Assembly: GCA_000146045.2 (NCBI GenBank)
Contig: BK006934.2
Location: 448,001-512,000, forward strand
From: TPA_inf: Saccharomyces
Taxonomy: Eukaryota
Direction of reading: 5' to 3'
Length of the DNA: 64,000 nucleotides
This document shows positions 7,528-27,778 of the stretch, in pieces. Position 1 is the first letter of the stretch. Each line of letters begins with the position of its first letter. The notes under the pieces were generated by a model. It saw only the letters and a list, made by a program, of their open reading frames with translations, was not told the origin of the DNA and did not search any database. The translations under genes and the position numbers were made by a program.

Positions 7528-8590
7528 CGTAAAAAGGAATGTACTTGTATAGAAAAAACACATATTGTGCCGCTTAATATTTCGTTTCCCTCATGTATAT
7601 ACCTTATCGCTGTTAAAATAAGAAATCTTCACTTCTGCTATCTTTTTTTTTCAAACATTGATTAATAATCCGGCCGTCCGCAGATTGCTTACGCAGAATA
7701 TACCGTACCGCCACCGTAAAATTAACGAATACTTAAATTTCCGCCTCTTCCGTTTCGGCAATAGCGAACCTTAATGTAAGTTTTTAAAAGGCAGCGCCAA
7801 AAATTGCTCTGAAAGGCCTGCAGTGCTTCGCGGCTACGCAGTTCCCATGTAAAAAAAAAAGAAAACTTTCTTTTTGAATCTGGAAAATCCGCACAGGCGC
7901 GCCAGCATAAACCTCAGTATCCTGCAAAGGCCATCCTTTTAAAGATCTTAACAACGTATGAATCTGAGGCAGAGAGAAATTAAGCGATAAACGTTCCTTT
8001 TAGACTTTCACTTTCTTGGCCGTCATTTAAAAAAAAATTATCTAATAATCTCTAATTTTAAGTTGAAATCACGCTAACATATGACTATGACTATTAACCT
8101 TTTTATGTGGAAAAAAAAGGAAGAATATGTTGTAAACGTATTTTAGCCTTGTTCCCGGAACTTTAATCACTCTGGCAACTTTTTAAGTAGTCTGTCTTTT
8201 TCTCGGTCGTATATTCCTCAAAATTCAAGAGGAAAGAGGAAGTGAAGAAGAAAGCCTAGAAAAAAAAAATAGGCATTAACACAAAAACGCACCTAAGGGA
8301 CTGAGGAAAATCAAAAAAATGATAATTGCAGTTAGTAAATCTTCATAATCGACGCCCACTTATTCTTTCTTTATAGTACCGGGTAGGCGGGTAATTCATA
8401 CGTAGCTGCTGCGGGAGAACTACTATGTATCATTCCCTGTTTATTTGTATGAATTATTATTTAATACGTACATTCTTGTAAGCCCTTCTTCAACAAAACA
8501 AACAAATAAAGCGAGAAAAAAGGGAACCACGAATTAAGATAATTAATCAAACAATAGATAGGAAAAGGAGATCGACGAGTAAGCGTAAGA

Positions 8591-14378: not shown

Positions 14379-15704
<1,326 letters not shown>

Positions 15705-15914
15705 TAGTGTTAACCGTACTTTGTAGCACCATTTCTTTTTCTTCTAATTTATATAATTAATGAATATATATATTTGGGATAAATAGCCTTTAATGAAATA
15801 TTAACAGAACTTTTTTGCTTGGGCAGCAACAGATTTATATCTTTGTGGAAAGGAGTAAACTGGGCTTTCACTTTAGATCATTATTCACATAAACTTCTTT
15901 TAGAATATGTTTGA

Positions 15915-16152
15915 ATGTAAATCCACAAAATGGAATCGGTCATTCTACATCATGAATATTAATTTACCTTCTTTCCTTTTATATGCTGTCATTCATCATC
16001 CTATTACATTATCAATCGTTGCATTTCAGCTTCCATTAATTTCGACGACTGTGTCCCAATCCTATGTCATCTTCTTACACCGCGTGTAATAATATAGTAG
16101 TAACATGACTACTAGTCACTATATGGTAGTTTATTTTTATCACAACAGATTG
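15915..16152 (+). mobile_element. Partial (5'-truncated) sigma-like LTR fragment, about 240 bp, in + orientation and ending in ...CACAACA
   Basis: It is near-identical (about 85-90% by eye) to the 3' part of the sigma element at 18571..18975 on the opposite strand. The matching blocks are cctattacattatcaatc...ttcagc, gtcccaatcctatgtcatcttcttacaccgc and tgtaataatata. Confidence 0.6.
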
Positions 16153-17177
16153 AAGTGTGCAGAGTTTATATCCCTGCGTTTTATATTGATTAGTAGCATA
16201 ATGTAGGAAGTTGATATGAATCTGAGAGTGTGACCATATGGTGGTAGAAATGAGTTTAGGTACAATATTAAATGCGATGTCAAAATTCCAAAGTATACGC
16301 TCGCACCCACGCCCACTTTCTTCCAATATACTACGATATAAATTTATGTTACTATATGTGCGACAGTTTCTACTGCAGACGTGGATTGAGAACACGTAAA
16401 GTTTGTGCTGGGTAGAAATTGAAAGGATATCCCCTTAACGGCTGTGCTACCGTTTATGTTCGTCCTTATCCTCTCCTGTTAAACTGTTATAAAAATCGTT
16501 ACATATCTTGCATTCTGTGACCAAGTATTTGTTGGCCTTAGATTTATATTAGGGCCATTGCAATTAAACTGGCTTCAGTTCTCAATGAACGAAGGATTTT
16601 TGGCACGCTAAAACTGGTGTGAAGGTATTGCACATTCAAATAGGCTCTTTTATTGATTTGTCTTGAAAGCTTTTGGAATAAGATCTAGAATAAGGACTAC
16701 CCGAAAAAGAACAGGATACCCAGTAAAAACGCTATTGGGTACCTAGAGAAGCTGGTTTGTCACTGTCCACACAAAATGCCCTAATAACATTCTGAAAGGT
16801 TCTGACCGTACATCTTCGCCTGCGGTTGCATTGAGGTCGCCTCGGTCATAAAGTGAATATGCGACCCGATGGTTGCTCAAATGTTAAATGCAGGTAAAAA
16901 ATAAGACCCCAGGAATTAAATAGTAAGATTTAATATATATATATATAACGGGCACAATTCGTTCATCAAACATGCAGCGGAGTTTCAAATTTGCTATAAT
17001 ATAGAACATGTTTAATTCAACCAATCGAAACGTACAGGCGCACACTATATTCAAGCAGTAAAACTACTATCTGAACATTGAGGTCGAATATATATATTAT
17101 AGGCATAAAATCTCCTACCAAACTTGCATCAAACCTCTAAAATTACTATTATATATTCAACTTATTTAACGTGCCCA

Positions 17178-17669
17178 ATGGAAATGCACTGGATAACCCT
17201 CGTTGCATTTATTGCTACATTCTTCAACCTAGCTGCTACCTCGATCAACAATAGTTCCCTCCCTGATGTTGATCTTACTAATCCTTTGAGATTCTTCACT
17301 AACATTCCAGCAGGACTTAATTTTAATGAAGTCATTTTTCTCGAAAGAAACGGATTCTATCTTGGTGGAATAGACTCTCCCTCAATCTACCACTTAATAA
17401 ATGGTACAGCTGTGTATTTTGGGGATGTCAGAGATAATATCATGCCGGGTACAGTTGGCACTACTAGGAATGTTACAGATGTCGACTATGGCTCCTTACT
17501 GACAGAGTATGGTTATGAAGCTAATACAGATTATGTCTCGCGTTGGATCGCCACTCATGTAGTAATCTCTCCATTGAATGCTACAGAGTTTTTCCAAACA
17601 CCCGTGCCAGTACCAGTGCCAGTGCCGATAACAATACTGCACCAACAGGTGAACTCAAAACTACATTAG
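17178..17669 (+). CDS. YHR180W: Hypothetical/dubious ORF, 163 aa, no recognisable domain, ending in a VPVPVPVP repeat
   Basis: The track ORF 17124..17669 starts at TTG. The first ATG at 17178 gives 163 aa, consistent with the annotated dubious ORF YHR180W. It is flanked by LTR fragments and lacks strong codon bias. Confidence 0.35.
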   Translation: MEMHWITLVAFIATFFNLAATSINNSSLPDVDLTNPLRFFTNIPAGLNFNEVIFLERNGFYLGGIDSPSIYHLINGTAVYFGDVRDNIMPGTVGTTRNVTDVDYGSLLTEYGYEANTDYVSRWIATHVVISPLNATEFFQTPVPVPVPVPITILHQQVNSKLH

Positions 17670-17799
17670 TCAGGACCCGTTCAGCCCGTTAATCGTGGGA
17701 ATCTCTGTACTGAGGGTCAACTAGTGTATGCGACTGTGATTCAGATAATACCTTAAGCGTCGAAACCTCATACCCCCTCATCTGGCTCGGGAGCCAGTA

Positions 17800-17802
<3 letters not shown>

Positions 17803-17838
<36 letters not shown>
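17803..17838. repeat. (TA)18 dinucleotide microsatellite
   Basis: tatatatatatatatatatatatatatatatatatata is read directly in the sequence. Confidence 0.95.
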
Positions 17839-17841
<3 letters not shown>

Positions 17842-18570
17842 TCCTAAAATACTCTCACACAGAAGCACAATAATGAGTGACGCAAATGCAATTTATGACT
17901 AATTCATCACCAAAGAGAAATATGCAGCGTTAACTCTCAATCTAAGAATATGTAACAGATTTTAATCTCACGAACTAGCGACTTTAATTGTTGTACCTTA
18001 TTCCTTAGTAACGTTAGTAGTGTCTAATATTTTACTAGACGGTGCCACGATTTCAGAGATGTTAGATCAAAATTCCTTTCTTAAGAACAAGGATATGGCA
18101 AAGTATGGTAAACAAGACGTACAAGAGTGTTAAAGATAATGCATAGAACACGCTCAGTGTAAGCAAGATTAGTACAACTGCTGATCTGGAGCCAAGACAA
18201 CAAATATCACATCCCGTTTGTCATGTTAAAGATAGCTTATCATAAGTTAGCTGAGACACTCAACCTCATATAAAACAAAAACTGATTATTTTGGTGAAAT
18301 AATGAATCTTAAAGCTTGATAGTATTTGTATTGAATTACTACTCACAAACTATTTAAAACATCAAGCCAAATATATGCGGAGCACAGAGAAATATTTGTG
18401 AATTATATCTTTTGTTGGAAAGACAAGCAACTATCCTAGCGACATTAGGATTGCCAAGACATCCGGTTTTATTCAGACCCTTACATCAGCAGCAGCACGT
18501 TCCATCTTTTCAAACTTCCTGCCAAACATTTATGAAGACATGAAACTCTAAAATGTCATCTATTTATAGT

Positions 18571-18975
18571 AGTCATATTACTATTATATTATTACATGCG
18601 GTGTAAGAAGATGACATAGGATTGGGACACAGTCATCGAACTTAATGGACGCTGAAGTGCAAGGATTGATAATGTAATGGGATAATGAAACATATAAAAC
18701 GGAATGAGGAATAATCCTAATATTATCATGTAGAAATATCGATTCCATTTTGAGGATTCCTATATCCTCTAGGAGAACTTCTAGCATATTCTATATACCT
18801 AATATTATTGTCTTTGTGAACAATGGATTCCCACAAATTATCTCAAAATTCACAAATATCTCATTCTCGCATTCCAACAGTTATGTTACTCATTCTATTC
18901 GTTTGTTATGTGTGTTTTATGAACGTTTGGGATGACGTATTGTCATACTGACGTATCTTATTTTGAGATACAACA
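18571..18975 (-). mobile_element. Ty3 sigma solo LTR on the minus strand. Its 5' end (TGTTGTATCTCAAAAT...) lies 14 bp upstream of the tRNA-Thr gene.
   Basis: The reverse complement of 18945..18975 reads tgttgtatctcaaaataagatacgtcagtatgacaatacgtcatcc, the canonical sigma terminus. A tRNA-proximal position at roughly -16 bp is the hallmark of Ty3 integration. The distal boundary is uncertain, because similarity to the second copy ends near 18571 and no terminal CAACA is seen. Confidence 0.8.
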
Positions 18976-18989
18976 TAGTTGTATTTTTA

Positions 18990-19061
18990 GCCTCCTTAGC
19001 TTAGTGGTAGAGCGTTGCACTTGTAATGCAAAGGTCGCTAGTTCAATTCTGGCAGGTGGCA
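18990..19061 (+). tRNA. tT(UGU)H: tRNA-Thr, anticodon UGU, intronless, 72 nt, CCA not encoded
   Basis: The cloverleaf folds as GCCTCCT / TA / GCTT-AGTGGTA-GAGC / TTGCA-CTTGTAA-TGCAA / AGGTC / GCTAG-TTCAATT-CTGGC / AGGTGGC-A. A box TAGCTTAGTGG and B box GTTCAATTC are present. One T-T mismatch occurs in the acceptor stem as I folded it. Confidence 0.88.
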
Positions 19062-19075
19062 TTATACCGGTATTA

Positions 19076-19083
19076 TTTTTTTT
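19076..19083 (+). terminator. Pol III terminator T-run (T8) 14 nt downstream of tRNA-Thr
   Basis: tattattttttttccc is read directly in the sequence. Confidence 0.6.
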
Positions 19084-19227
19084 CCCTTTGTTCTTATTTC
19101 TCTATCATTTATAACTTTATGATTTTTTAAAGGTTGAATGGTCAATGTGAAAATTAAAACTAAAAACATATAGTTGACAAGTGAGAAAAAGAGCAAAAGG
19201 GAGAAAAGAAATTGTTAGAATAAAACC

Positions 19228-19914
19228 ATGCTGTTAGAATTGATTTCTTATGCAGGAACCGTTTCAGGGTTTCTTTTTTTAACACTTTCAATTGCATCGG
19301 GTTTATACTACATTAGTGAACTTGTTGAAGAACACACAGAACCCACAAGACGGTTTCTCACAAGGGCTATTTATGGTATAATATTAATATTAATTCTGCT
19401 ACTGTTACTAGACGGTTTCCCGTTCAAACTTACACTTTTTTCCATTGCATGTTACATAGTATATTACCAAAACTTAAAAAGTTTCCCATTTATTTCGTTA
19501 ACCAGCCCAACTTTCCTATTAAGCTGCGTATGTGTGGTCTTGAATCACTACTTCTGGTTCAAATATTTTAATGATACGGAAGTTCCCCCACAGTTCAAAT
19601 TTGATCCAAATTATATACCACGCAGACGTGCTAGTTTCGCTGAAGTAGCCTCATTTTTTGGTATATGCGTTTGGTTCATACCATTTGCCTTATTTGTTTC
19701 TCTGTCAGCTGGTGATTATGTGCTACCAACGACTAGTGAGCAACATATGGCTAAGAAAAATGATGACATCACAACGAACAACCAGCCAAAATTTCGTAAA
19801 AGGGCTGTTGGGTTAGCTCGTGTAGTCATCAACTCGGTAAGGAAGTACATCTACTCTCTAGCCCGTGTATTCGGTTATGAGATAGAACCTGACTTTGATA
19901 GATTGGCTGTTTAG
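19228..19914 (+). CDS. SVP26: Integral membrane protein of the early Golgi/COPII vesicles (TEX261 family cargo adaptor), 228 aa
   Basis: It is a 228-aa multi-pass membrane protein. The sequence and position match YHR181W. Confidence 0.88.
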   Translation: MLLELISYAGTVSGFLFLTLSIASGLYYISELVEEHTEPTRRFLTRAIYGIILILILLLLLDGFPFKLTLFSIACYIVYYQNLKSFPFISLTSPTFLLSCVCVVLNHYFWFKYFNDTEVPPQFKFDPNYIPRRRASFAEVASFFGICVWFIPFALFVSLSAGDYVLPTTSEQHMAKKNDDITTNNQPKFRKRAVGLARVVINSVRKYIYSLARVFGYEIEPDFDRLAV

Positions 19915-27705: not shown

Positions 27706-27778
27706 TGTTCCAACCGAGGATCGAACTCGGGACCTTTGCCGTGTGAAGGCAACGTGATAGCCGCTACACTATTGGAAC
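27706..27778 (-). tRNA. tV(CAC)H: tRNA-Val, anticodon CAC, intronless, 73 nt
   Basis: The reverse complement reads GTTCCAATAGTGTAGCGGCTATCACGTTGCCTTCACACGGCAAAGGTCCCGAGTTCGATCCTCGGTTGGAACA. The acceptor stem is perfect 7 bp, the anticodon loop is TTCACAC, and the B box GGTTCGATCC is present. Confidence 0.9.

What the first reader, a model, noticed from the sequence alone, without database searches (positions are those of the whole stretch)
15915..19083. Ty3 sigma LTR 14 bp upstream of tRNA-Thr(UGU), plus an inverted 5'-truncated sigma-like fragment 2.4 kb away, bracketing the dubious ORF YHR180W
The reverse complement of 18945..18975 is the canonical sigma terminus TGTTGTATCTCAAAAT.... It ends 14 bp from the first nucleotide of the tRNA-Thr gene. 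That is the position-specific integration signature of Ty3, which Pol III factors TFIIIB and TFIIIC target to about -16 of tRNA genes. A second copy at 15915..16152 is in the opposite orientation and retains only about 240 bp of the tRNA-distal (3') part of the LTR; the roughly 165 bp including the TGTTG terminus is absent. It does retain a terminal ...CACAACA that the tRNA-proximal copy has lost. The 2.4 kb between the two, including YHR180W and about 1 kb of unassigned sequence at 16153..17120, therefore looks like a fossil insertion hotspot built up over several events. The two fragments are too divergent to be the LTRs of a single element. The other tRNA in the window, tV(CAC) at 27706..27778, has no LTR nearby.
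Basis: partly seen in the sequence, partly recalled or inferred. Interest (0 to 1): 0.5.

Follow-up and report, generated by a model that had tools for sequence, protein, structure and literature searches.

The report
Known Ty LTR relics upstream of tRNA-Thr

Summary
The window is S. cerevisiae chrVIII 448001-512000. The family assignment is mostly wrong. Sigma (Ty3 LTR) similarity covers only 18881/18903-18975, which is sigma nt 1 to about 75-105. The segment 18533-18863 is a near full-length Ty1-type delta on the + strand. The segment 15920-16147 is the 5' 233 nt of another delta on the - strand. So the inverted repeat is delta against delta, not sigma. A fourth relic at 18423-18474 (+) is the 3' part of a Ty3p-type LTR. 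These four elements match the published annotation base for base: YHRCdelta12, an unnamed Ty3p fragment, YHRWdelta13 and YHRCsigma3 (Carr et al. 2012). The hotspot idea holds. Other strains carry a full-length Ty2 with a GTTAC target duplication, an extra solo delta, or a Ty4 tau fragment at the same spot. S. mikatae has independent LTRs at the orthologous tRNA. The 2.27 kb around YHR180W shows no Ty similarity. Verdict: ordinary, already known, low interest.

The parts
15920..16147 (-). YHRCdelta12: solo Ty1/Ty2-type delta LTR, 5' 233 nt only. The TGTTG terminus reads as CAACA at 16143-16147. The 3' ~105 nt is deleted in this haplotype.
   Evidence: nhmmer with a delta profile gave 16148-15920, profile positions 3-230, E 2e-46. 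blastn gave Ty1-LTR nt 1-233 at 75.6% (E 3e-37) and Ty2-LTR nt 1-229 at 76.7% (E 1e-41). Published as chrVIII 463920-464147(-), YHRCdelta12. It is full length in strain GCA_000978135.2.
16148..18417 (.). 2.27 kb of non-repetitive sequence containing the dubious ORF YHR180W (17178-17669, +). It is not recognisably Ty-derived.
   Evidence: No hit to 44 tRNA-proximal yeast loci. No hit to the six Ty LTR references. No tblastn hit to Ty2 or Ty3 proteins. No Pfam family for YHR180W. Absent from the orthologous spacer in S. mikatae, S. kudriavzevii and S. arboricola.
18423..18474 (+). 3'-terminal fragment of a Ty3p-type (sigma-like) LTR, probably extending to about 18492. It has no SGD name.
   Evidence: blastn gave Ty3p-LTR nt 296-348 at 83% (E 6e-9) and Ty3-LTR nt 292-323 at 87.5%. 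Local alignment score was 59, against a maximum of 35 in 200 shuffles. Published as chrVIII 466423-466474(+), TY3_1p.
18533..18863 (+). YHRWdelta13: near full-length solo Ty1-type delta LTR. The 5' TGTTG has mutated to TGAAG, the 3' end is ...TCTCA, and a relic of the gag ATG sits at 18823.
   Evidence: nhmmer delta profile gave 18540-18864, E 1.2e-82. blastn gave Ty1-LTR nt 34-338 at 84.6%, E 5e-92. The 5' end aligns to other deltas that start TGTTGAAATGAAACTC. Published as 466556-466863(+), YHRWdelta13.
18864..18880 (.). 17 unassigned nt (TTCTCGCATTCCAACAG) between delta13 and sigma3.
   Evidence: No reference covers these bases. Strain GCA_000978135.2 has 85 bp of Ty4 tau in place of the first 12 of these 17 nt (18864-18875).
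18881..18975 (-). YHRCsigma3: 5' fragment of a Ty3 sigma LTR (about nt 1-105, with an internal deletion). Its TGTTGTATCTC terminus faces the tRNA.
   Evidence: nhmmer sigma profile gave 18975-18898, E 5e-18. blastn gave Ty3-LTR nt 1-75 at 89.3%, E 1e-22. It is 93% identical to 44 sigma copies from yeast-containing metagenome assemblies. Published as 466881-466975(-), YHRCsigma3.
18976..18989 (.). 14-nt spacer between the sigma terminus and the tRNA 5' end.
   Evidence: Read directly from the sequence. It is 15 nt in some strains. The range among 16 other sigma-tRNA pairs is 13-17 nt.
18990..19061 (+). tRNA-Thr(UGU) gene, the Pol III target that attracts the insertions.
   Evidence: ARAGORN. 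Rfam RF00005 at 68.7 bits.

Best explanation
The interval is the upstream landing zone of the tRNA-Thr(UGU) gene tT(UGU)H on S. cerevisiae chromosome VIII. It holds four dead solo-LTR relics from at least four separate retrotransposon insertions.

Reading outward from the tRNA, they are:
- a 95-bp 5' fragment of a Ty3 sigma (YHRCsigma3), 14 bp from the tRNA;
- a nearly complete Ty1-type delta (YHRWdelta13);
- an approximately 52-70-bp 3' fragment of a Ty3p-type LTR;
- after 2.27 kb of non-Ty sequence, the 5' 233 nt of another Ty1/Ty2-type delta in the opposite orientation (YHRCdelta12).

Mechanism, from established knowledge summarised in PMC5911963:
- Ty3 integrase is tethered by TFIIIB and inserts 1-4 bp from the Pol III start site. 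This puts the LTR end about 15 bp from the mature tRNA 5' end.
- Ty1 and Ty2 integrase is tethered by Pol III subunits and inserts within about 1 kb upstream.
- LTR-LTR recombination then leaves solo LTRs.
- Later insertions and deletions truncate older relics and push them outward.

Shown here: the family of each piece, the spacing, the nesting, and ongoing insertion at this site in other strains. Inferred: the order of events and the tethering mechanism at this particular locus.
For: - **Reference LTRs obtained independently.** 44 sigma copies from yeast-containing metagenome assemblies gave a 341-bp consensus. Sigma is tied to Ty3 by contig L024, where a polypurine tract plus TGTTGTATC follows an ORF hitting the Ty3 peptidase PF12384 (E 4e-113), RVT_1 and rve. 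Delta is tied to Ty1/Ty2 by a full-length element in L047, with TYA PF01021 (E 6e-205) and integrase preceding RVT_2.
- **Profile searches of the whole 64 kb.** The delta profile hits only 18540-18864(+) at E 1e-82 and 16148-15920(-) at E 2e-46. The sigma profile hits only 18975-18898(-) at E 5e-18.
- **The published six-family LTR library** (Ty1-5 plus Ty3p) gives the same partition, adds the Ty3p fragment, and gives no Ty4 or Ty5 hit.
- **The published annotation matches base for base** at an offset of 448000: YHRCdelta12, a TY3_1p fragment, YHRWdelta13 and YHRCsigma3, all listed as solo, inactive and fixed.
- **Spacing.** 16 independent sigma-tRNA pairs are 13-17 bp apart, in both orientations.
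- **The site is still in use.** One strain has a full-length Ty2 with TSD GTTAC at 18886-18890. Another has an extra solo delta at the same site. A third has a Ty4 tau fragment, 98.8% identical to the Ty4 reference, between delta13 and sigma3.
- **S. mikatae** has an intact orthologous tRNA with independent nested Ty1/2-type LTRs and no sigma.
- **Identity to the family reference falls with distance from the tRNA:** 89%, 85%, 83%, 76%.
Against: - No 5-bp target-site duplication is detectable around delta12 or delta13.
- Sigma3 is truncated, so its duplication cannot be tested. The independence of the events therefore rests on family, orientation and divergence.
- Delta12 now lies 2.8-3.1 kb from the tRNA, outside the usual ~1-kb Ty1 window. 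This requires that the 2.27-kb block arrived later, which is not shown.
- 17 nt (18864-18880) and 40 nt (18493-18532) remain unassigned.
- Identity to a single reference is only a rough proxy for age.
Confidence: 0.95

Rival explanations
1. 18571-18975 is one Ty3 sigma LTR, and 15915-16152 is an inverted, 5'-truncated second sigma.
For: The sigma terminus at 18960-18975 is real. The two regions do share an inverted repeat.
Against: - The shared repeat (18567-18758) does not overlap the sigma-like part (18881-18975).
- The sigma profile and the Ty3 LTR reference give no hit to 15915-16152 or 18571-18880, whereas delta references hit both at E 1e-37 to 1e-92.
- 405 bp exceeds the 340-341-bp sigma length.
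- The published annotation calls both pieces Ty1 LTRs.
Confidence: 0.01
2. Delta12 and delta13 are not independent insertions. They are two copies from one event, either an inverted duplication or one old Ty1 whose LTRs were rearranged by inversion, with the 2.27 kb between them being what is left of the interior or a captured segment.
For: They are 84% identical over 218 columns, and 92% over 123 nt. That is closer than delta12 is to the Ty1/Ty2 references at 76%. The 2.27 kb between them is lineage-specific.
Against: - tblastn with Ty2 and Ty3 proteins finds nothing in the interval.
- At 16% LTR divergence, a coding relic should still be visible.
- Other unrelated genomic deltas are equally close to delta13, at 80-85%, so the similarity reflects a shared subfamily.
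- In strain GCA_000978135.2, delta12 is a complete LTR abutting a separate sigma fragment.
Confidence: 0.05
3. The whole 2.4 kb between the deltas, including YHR180W, is itself a stack of Ty fossils too decayed to recognise.
For: The block is absent from S. mikatae, S. kudriavzevii and S. arboricola. It sits between LTR relics. A 72%-identical YHR180W homologue on unidentified contigs also lies near delta and tau relics.
Against: - No LTR, Ty-protein or Pfam similarity was found at any threshold tried.
- RepeatMasker with Ty internal sequences also found nothing there.
- A neighbouring relic as old as delta12 (76% identical to its reference) is still easily detected.
Confidence: 0.08

Closest known systems
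SGD / Carr, Bensasson & Bergman 2012 features YHRCsigma3, YHRWdelta13, YHRCdelta12 and the unnamed TY3_1p fragment chrVIII_s233+
   Same: Identical coordinates at an offset of 448000, and identical strands and families. These are the same objects.
   Different: Nothing substantive. My alignment extends delta13 about 23 bp further 5' (18533 against 18556), and the Ty3p fragment probably extends to about 18492.
Typical solo sigma elements upstream of tRNA genes (Ty3 position-specific integration)
   Same: TGTTGTATCTC terminus. 14 bp from the mature tRNA 5' end, within the 13-17 bp range of 16 other pairs, with either orientation seen.
   Different: Only about 95 of 340 bp remain. The rest was lost at a junction with later insertions.
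Nested Ty1/Ty2/Ty4 LTR clusters upstream of other tRNA genes
   Same: Mixed families, both orientations, truncations at junctions, and strain polymorphism with full-length elements.
   Different: One delta lies about 3 kb from the tRNA, separated from it by 2.27 kb of non-Ty sequence.
YHR180W-A 'de novo gene' formed from the Ty3 LTR plus tRNA-Thr (PMC6069113)
   Same: ORF 18932-19114 spans the sigma3 terminus and the tRNA.
   Different: That paper concerns the ORF, not the LTR anatomy.

Membership tests
Ty3 sigma LTR | Sequence similarity to the sigma consensus, including the TGTTGTATCTCAAAAT 5' terminus | tested here: met
   Met for 18881/18903-18975 only: 89-93% identity, E 1e-22 and 5e-18.
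Ty3 sigma LTR | The same similarity for 18571-18880 and for 15915-16152, as the finding claimed | tested here: not met
   No sigma hit at E<=1 or E<=0.01. Both regions hit delta instead.
Ty3 sigma LTR | Complete ~340-bp LTR with TG...CA ends | tested here: not met
   Only nt 1 to about 105 are present.
Ty3 sigma LTR | LTR end about 15 bp upstream of the mature 5' end of a Pol III gene | tested here: met
   14 bp here. 16 independent pairs give 13-17 bp.
Ty3 sigma LTR | 5-bp target-site duplication | tested here: inconclusive
   The inner end of the LTR is missing, so only one flank (TAGTT) exists.
Ty3 sigma LTR | The repeat family is the LTR of a gypsy-type element | tested here: met
   In L024, an ORF with Ty3 peptidase PF12384, RVT_1, RNase H and rve is followed by a polypurine tract and TGTTGTATC.
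Ty1/Ty2 delta LTR | Sequence similarity to Ty1/Ty2 LTR references | tested here: met
   18533-18863: 84.6% to the Ty1 LTR, E 5e-92. 15920-16147: 76-77% to Ty1/Ty2, E 1e-37 to 1e-41. Profile E values are 1e-82 and 2e-46.
Ty1/Ty2 delta LTR | The repeat family is the LTR of a copia-type element with TYA gag | tested here: met
   The L047/L057 full-length element has TYA PF01021 and integrase preceding RVT_2, and is flanked by 332-bp LTRs. Delta13 keeps the gag ATG relic at 18823.
Ty1/Ty2 delta LTR | TG...CA termini | tested here: inconclusive
   Delta12 has the 5' TGTTG but lacks the 3' end. Delta13 has the 3' TCTCA but its 5' end is mutated to TGAAG.
Ty1/Ty2 delta LTR | 5-bp target-site duplication | tested here: not met
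   Delta13 flanks are ATTTA and TTCTC. The full-length delta12 in L055 has AAATA and GACGG. This is expected for old or recombined solo LTRs. The young Ty2 in L057 does have GTTAC on both sides.
Ty1/Ty2 delta LTR | Within about 1 kb upstream of a Pol III gene | tested here: inconclusive
   Delta13 lies 127-457 bp upstream, so it meets the criterion. Delta12 lies 2.8-3.1 kb upstream, so it does not at present.
Ty3p LTR | Similarity to the S. paradoxus Ty3p LTR that is stronger than to Ty3 | tested here: met
   Ty3p nt 296-348 at 83% (E 6e-9), against Ty3 nt 292-323 at E 1e-4. Score 59 against a shuffle maximum of 35.
Ty4 tau / Ty5 omega LTR | Similarity to the tau or omega reference | tested here: not met
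   No hit anywhere in the window at E<=0.01. Tau is present only in strain GCA_000978135.2.

The most novel reading that the evidence does not exclude
The 2.27-kb block at 16148-18417, which carries YHR180W, is a lineage-specific acquisition. It landed inside an older LTR cluster and pushed delta12 (and, in one strain, a further sigma fragment) about 2.3 kb away from the tRNA. That would make it a case of non-Ty DNA captured at a tRNA-upstream insertion hotspot. It has a diverged relative on unidentified Saccharomyces-like contigs that is also next to LTR relics.
Probability: 0.25. Interest if true: 0.35.

Novelty: already known. Interest (0 to 1): 0.08.

Why it matters
It matters little beyond bookkeeping. 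These solo LTRs have been annotated since the yeast genome surveys, and their targeting mechanisms are textbook. The useful outcomes are two. First, a corrected anatomy: delta, not sigma, for about 560 of the roughly 650 bp that were called sigma. Second, a caution that a short terminal motif should not be extended to a whole repeat without a family comparison. The strain and species comparisons illustrate that this tRNA remains a live insertion target.

Tried and rejected
- A scan of viral contigs for the sigma terminus found nothing.
- tblastn with a Ty1 Gag sequence recalled from memory against the metagenome loci found nothing, because those assemblies break at Ty1. The delta reference came instead from a strain carrying a full-length Ty2 at this locus and from the published library.
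- I considered that the + strand sigma-like piece at 18444-18483 and the - strand sigma3 were two halves of one sigma split by an inversion between the inverted deltas. I rejected this because the geometry does not restore contiguity, and the piece matches Ty3p better than Ty3.
- I considered that CATTCCAACA at 18870-18879 is a remnant of a - strand delta 5' end. This is weak, because most strains read CATTCCAATA and no matching remainder lies left of delta13.
- I looked for Ty protein relics in 15705-18990 and found none.
- No S. paradoxus locus was obtained. Neither the SVP26 cluster listing (15 of 37 members shown) nor the SSP1 search and cluster listing (15 of 111 members shown) returned a sequence named S. 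paradoxus; the SVP26 cluster groups the Saccharomyces orthologues at 90% identity.
Full report
**Observation.** The window carries tRNA-Thr(UGU) at 18990-19061 on the + strand (ARAGORN; Rfam tRNA 68.7 bits). The reverse complement of 18960-18975 is exactly TGTTGTATCTCAAAAT, the only such site in 64 kb. Fourteen nucleotides separate it from the tRNA. The repeat finder shows inverted arms at 15992-16114 / 18567-18689 (123 nt, 92%) and 15920-15953 / 18725-18758. However, the arm shared with the left copy ends at 18758, more than 100 bp short of the sigma-like terminus.

**Reference sequences obtained independently.**
- A scan of metagenome contigs for the sigma terminus returned 44 loci from yeast-containing assemblies. 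23 complete copies gave a 341-bp consensus.
- In contig L024 the repeat follows a polypurine tract at the end of a 1296-aa ORF. That ORF matches the Ty3 peptidase (PF12384, E 4e-113), RVT_1, RNase H and integrase. The repeat is therefore the Ty3 LTR.
- Looking up the neighbouring SVP26 protein in public assemblies gave the same locus in ten S. cerevisiae strains.
- One of those strains (GCA_947370495.1) carries a full-length element here, with TYA capsid (PF01021, E 6e-205) and integrase upstream of RVT_2. It is flanked by 332-bp LTRs, which makes it a Ty1/Ty2-type element and its LTR a bona fide delta.
- I then took the published six-family LTR library (Ty1-5 plus Ty3p) from File S1 of Carr, Bensasson & Bergman 2012 (PMC3511429).

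**Classification.**
- BLAST of 15500-19300 against the 44 loci shows two separate repeat families. All sigma copies match only 18903-18975, at 90-93%. A different ~300-bp family matches 18540-18865 and 15920-16148.
- Profile searches of the whole window agree. The delta profile hits 18540-18864(+) at E 1.2e-82 and 16148-15920(-) at E 2e-46. The sigma profile hits only 18975-18898(-) at E 5e-18. Nothing else is found.
- The published library gives the following:

| Window coordinates | Best reference match | Identity | E-value |
|---|---|---|---|
| 16147-15920 (-) | Ty1-LTR nt 1-233 / Ty2-LTR nt 1-229 | 76-77% | 3e-37 / 1e-41 |
| 18423-18474 (+) | Ty3p-LTR nt 296-348 | 83% | 6e-9 |
| 18567-18863 (+) | Ty1-LTR nt 34-338 | 84.6% | 5e-92 |
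| 18975-18903 (-) | Ty3-LTR nt 1-75 | 89% | 1e-22 |

- There is no Ty4 or Ty5 hit, and nothing near tRNA-Val(CAC).
- The Ty3p match scores 59, against a maximum of 35 in 200 shuffles.
- Delta13's 5' end aligns to other deltas that begin TGTTGAAATGAAACTC. This places its start at 18533 with a mutated TGAAG terminus.

**It is already annotated.** Files S2 and S3 of Carr et al. list four elements, all solo, inactive and fixed in 20-24 strains:
- chrVIII 463920-464147(-), YHRCdelta12 (Ty1)
- chrVIII 466423-466474(+), TY3_1p, no SGD name
- chrVIII 466556-466863(+), YHRWdelta13 (Ty1)
- chrVIII 466881-466975(-), YHRCsigma3 (Ty3)

With an offset of 448000 these are my coordinates. The window is therefore chrVIII 448001-512000 of an S288C-type genome, and one strain assembly is 100% identical over 6 kb. 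PMC6069113 already describes the ORF YHR180W-A (18932-19114) as built from the Ty3 LTR and tRNA-Thr.

**Position specificity.** In the metagenome loci, 16 non-redundant sigma-tRNA pairs have 13-17 bp between the LTR end and the mature tRNA 5' end, with a mode of 15. Nine have the 5' end proximal and seven the 3' end. The 14 bp here is typical, and some strains have 15. The review PMC5911963 gives the accepted mechanisms: Ty3 integrates 1-4 bp from the Pol III start site through TFIIIB, while Ty1, Ty2 and Ty4 integrate within about 1 kb upstream through Pol III subunits.

**The hotspot is real and still active.**
- The full-length Ty2 in GCA_947370495.1 sits at window 18886-18890 with a perfect 5-bp duplication, GTTAC, about 100 bp upstream of the tRNA. 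Delta13 is retained.
- GCA_029990125.1 has an additional solo delta at the same GTTAC site.
- GCA_000978135.2 has 85 bp of Ty4 tau (nt 287-371, 98.8% identical to the reference) between delta13 and sigma3. The 3' end of its delta13 is more canonical, which I infer reflects LTR-LTR recombination with a later Ty1 inserted into the tau.
- The same strain has an OYE2-SVP26 spacer 4.8 kb longer. It also has a complete delta12 abutting a further sigma internal fragment, and a diverged duplicate of 15919-17601.
- Part of its extra sequence matches S. mikatae. The S288C-type haplotype therefore carries a ~354-bp deletion that truncated delta12.

**Other species.**
- S. mikatae has the intact orthologous tRNA-Thr(UGU) (Rfam 68.7 bits). 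It has independent nested Ty1/2-type LTRs 180-750 bp upstream, no sigma, and a 1242-bp spacer.
- S. kudriavzevii and S. arboricola have spacers of 740 and 645 bp. They have only a degenerate tRNA remnant, with no ARAGORN or Rfam hit, and essentially no LTR.
- Only window segments up to about 15899 and from 18984 onward align across species.

**The 2.27-kb block (16148-18417, including YHR180W).** It has no LTR, Ty-protein or Pfam similarity, and it is missing from those three species. YHR180W has homologues only in S. cerevisiae, plus a 72%-identical ORF on short unidentified contigs. Those contigs also carry delta and tau relics but no tRNA. The origin of the block is unresolved, and I found no evidence that it is made of insertions.

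**Verdict.** This is an ordinary, previously annotated tRNA-upstream LTR cluster. The sigma call is correct only for the last ~95 bp. The inverted repeat is delta12 against delta13, which are 84% identical. Identity to the family reference declines with distance from the tRNA (89, 85, 83 and 76%). That is consistent with newer insertions pushing older ones outward, but it is only suggestive.

Noticed in passing
L047 / L057 3697-9656 (strain GCA_947370495.1), corresponding to window 18886-18890: Full-length Ty2 (LTRs 98.8% identical to the Ty2 reference) inserted about 100 bp upstream of tT(UGU), with a perfect 5-bp target duplication GTTAC. The insertion lies at the inner edge of sigma3.
   Followed up: yes
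L051 5371-5690 / L061 (strain GCA_029990125.1), same GTTAC site: Extra solo delta. Its right junction carries AATTCCAACA, the reverse complement of that delta's own first 10 nt, in place of the expected GTTACTCATT. This odd junction is unexplained.
   Followed up: partly
L045 5564-5648 / L055 1930-9648 (strain GCA_000978135.2): Ty4 tau fragment (nt 287-371, 98.8%) between delta13 and sigma3. The spacer is 4.8 kb longer, with a complete delta12, an extra sigma internal fragment (Ty3 nt 136-228), another old delta, and an 84-91% diverged duplicate of window 15919-17601. This may be an old or introgressed haplotype.
   Followed up: partly
L065 7770-7846 (S. arboricola); L066 about 7749-7830 (S. 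kudriavzevii): The orthologous tRNA-Thr(UGU) is degenerate in both species, with no ARAGORN or Rfam hit. Their OYE2-SVP26 spacers are short (645-740 bp) and free of LTRs. S. mikatae keeps the tRNA and has its own LTR cluster.
   Followed up: partly
window 16148-18417: 2.27 kb including YHR180W is lineage-specific and not Ty-like. A 72%-identical ORF (P0160) lies on unidentified contigs L069-L072 next to delta and tau relics.
   Followed up: partly
window 18864-18880 and 18493-18532: Two short stretches (17 nt and 40 nt) between recognised LTR pieces match no reference.
   Followed up: partly
window 18932-19114 (+): 60-aa ORF spanning the sigma3 terminus and the whole tRNA gene. This is YHR180W-A, described in PMC6069113 as a de novo ORF.
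   Followed up: no
window 17796-17853 and 16924-16948: (TA)n microsatellites inside the 2.27-kb block.
   Followed up: no
L007 about 1873-1980, L014 / L027: Other sigma copies in the metagenome loci are also cut at about nt 68-70 by delta insertions, so nested delta-in-sigma junctions recur.
   Followed up: no
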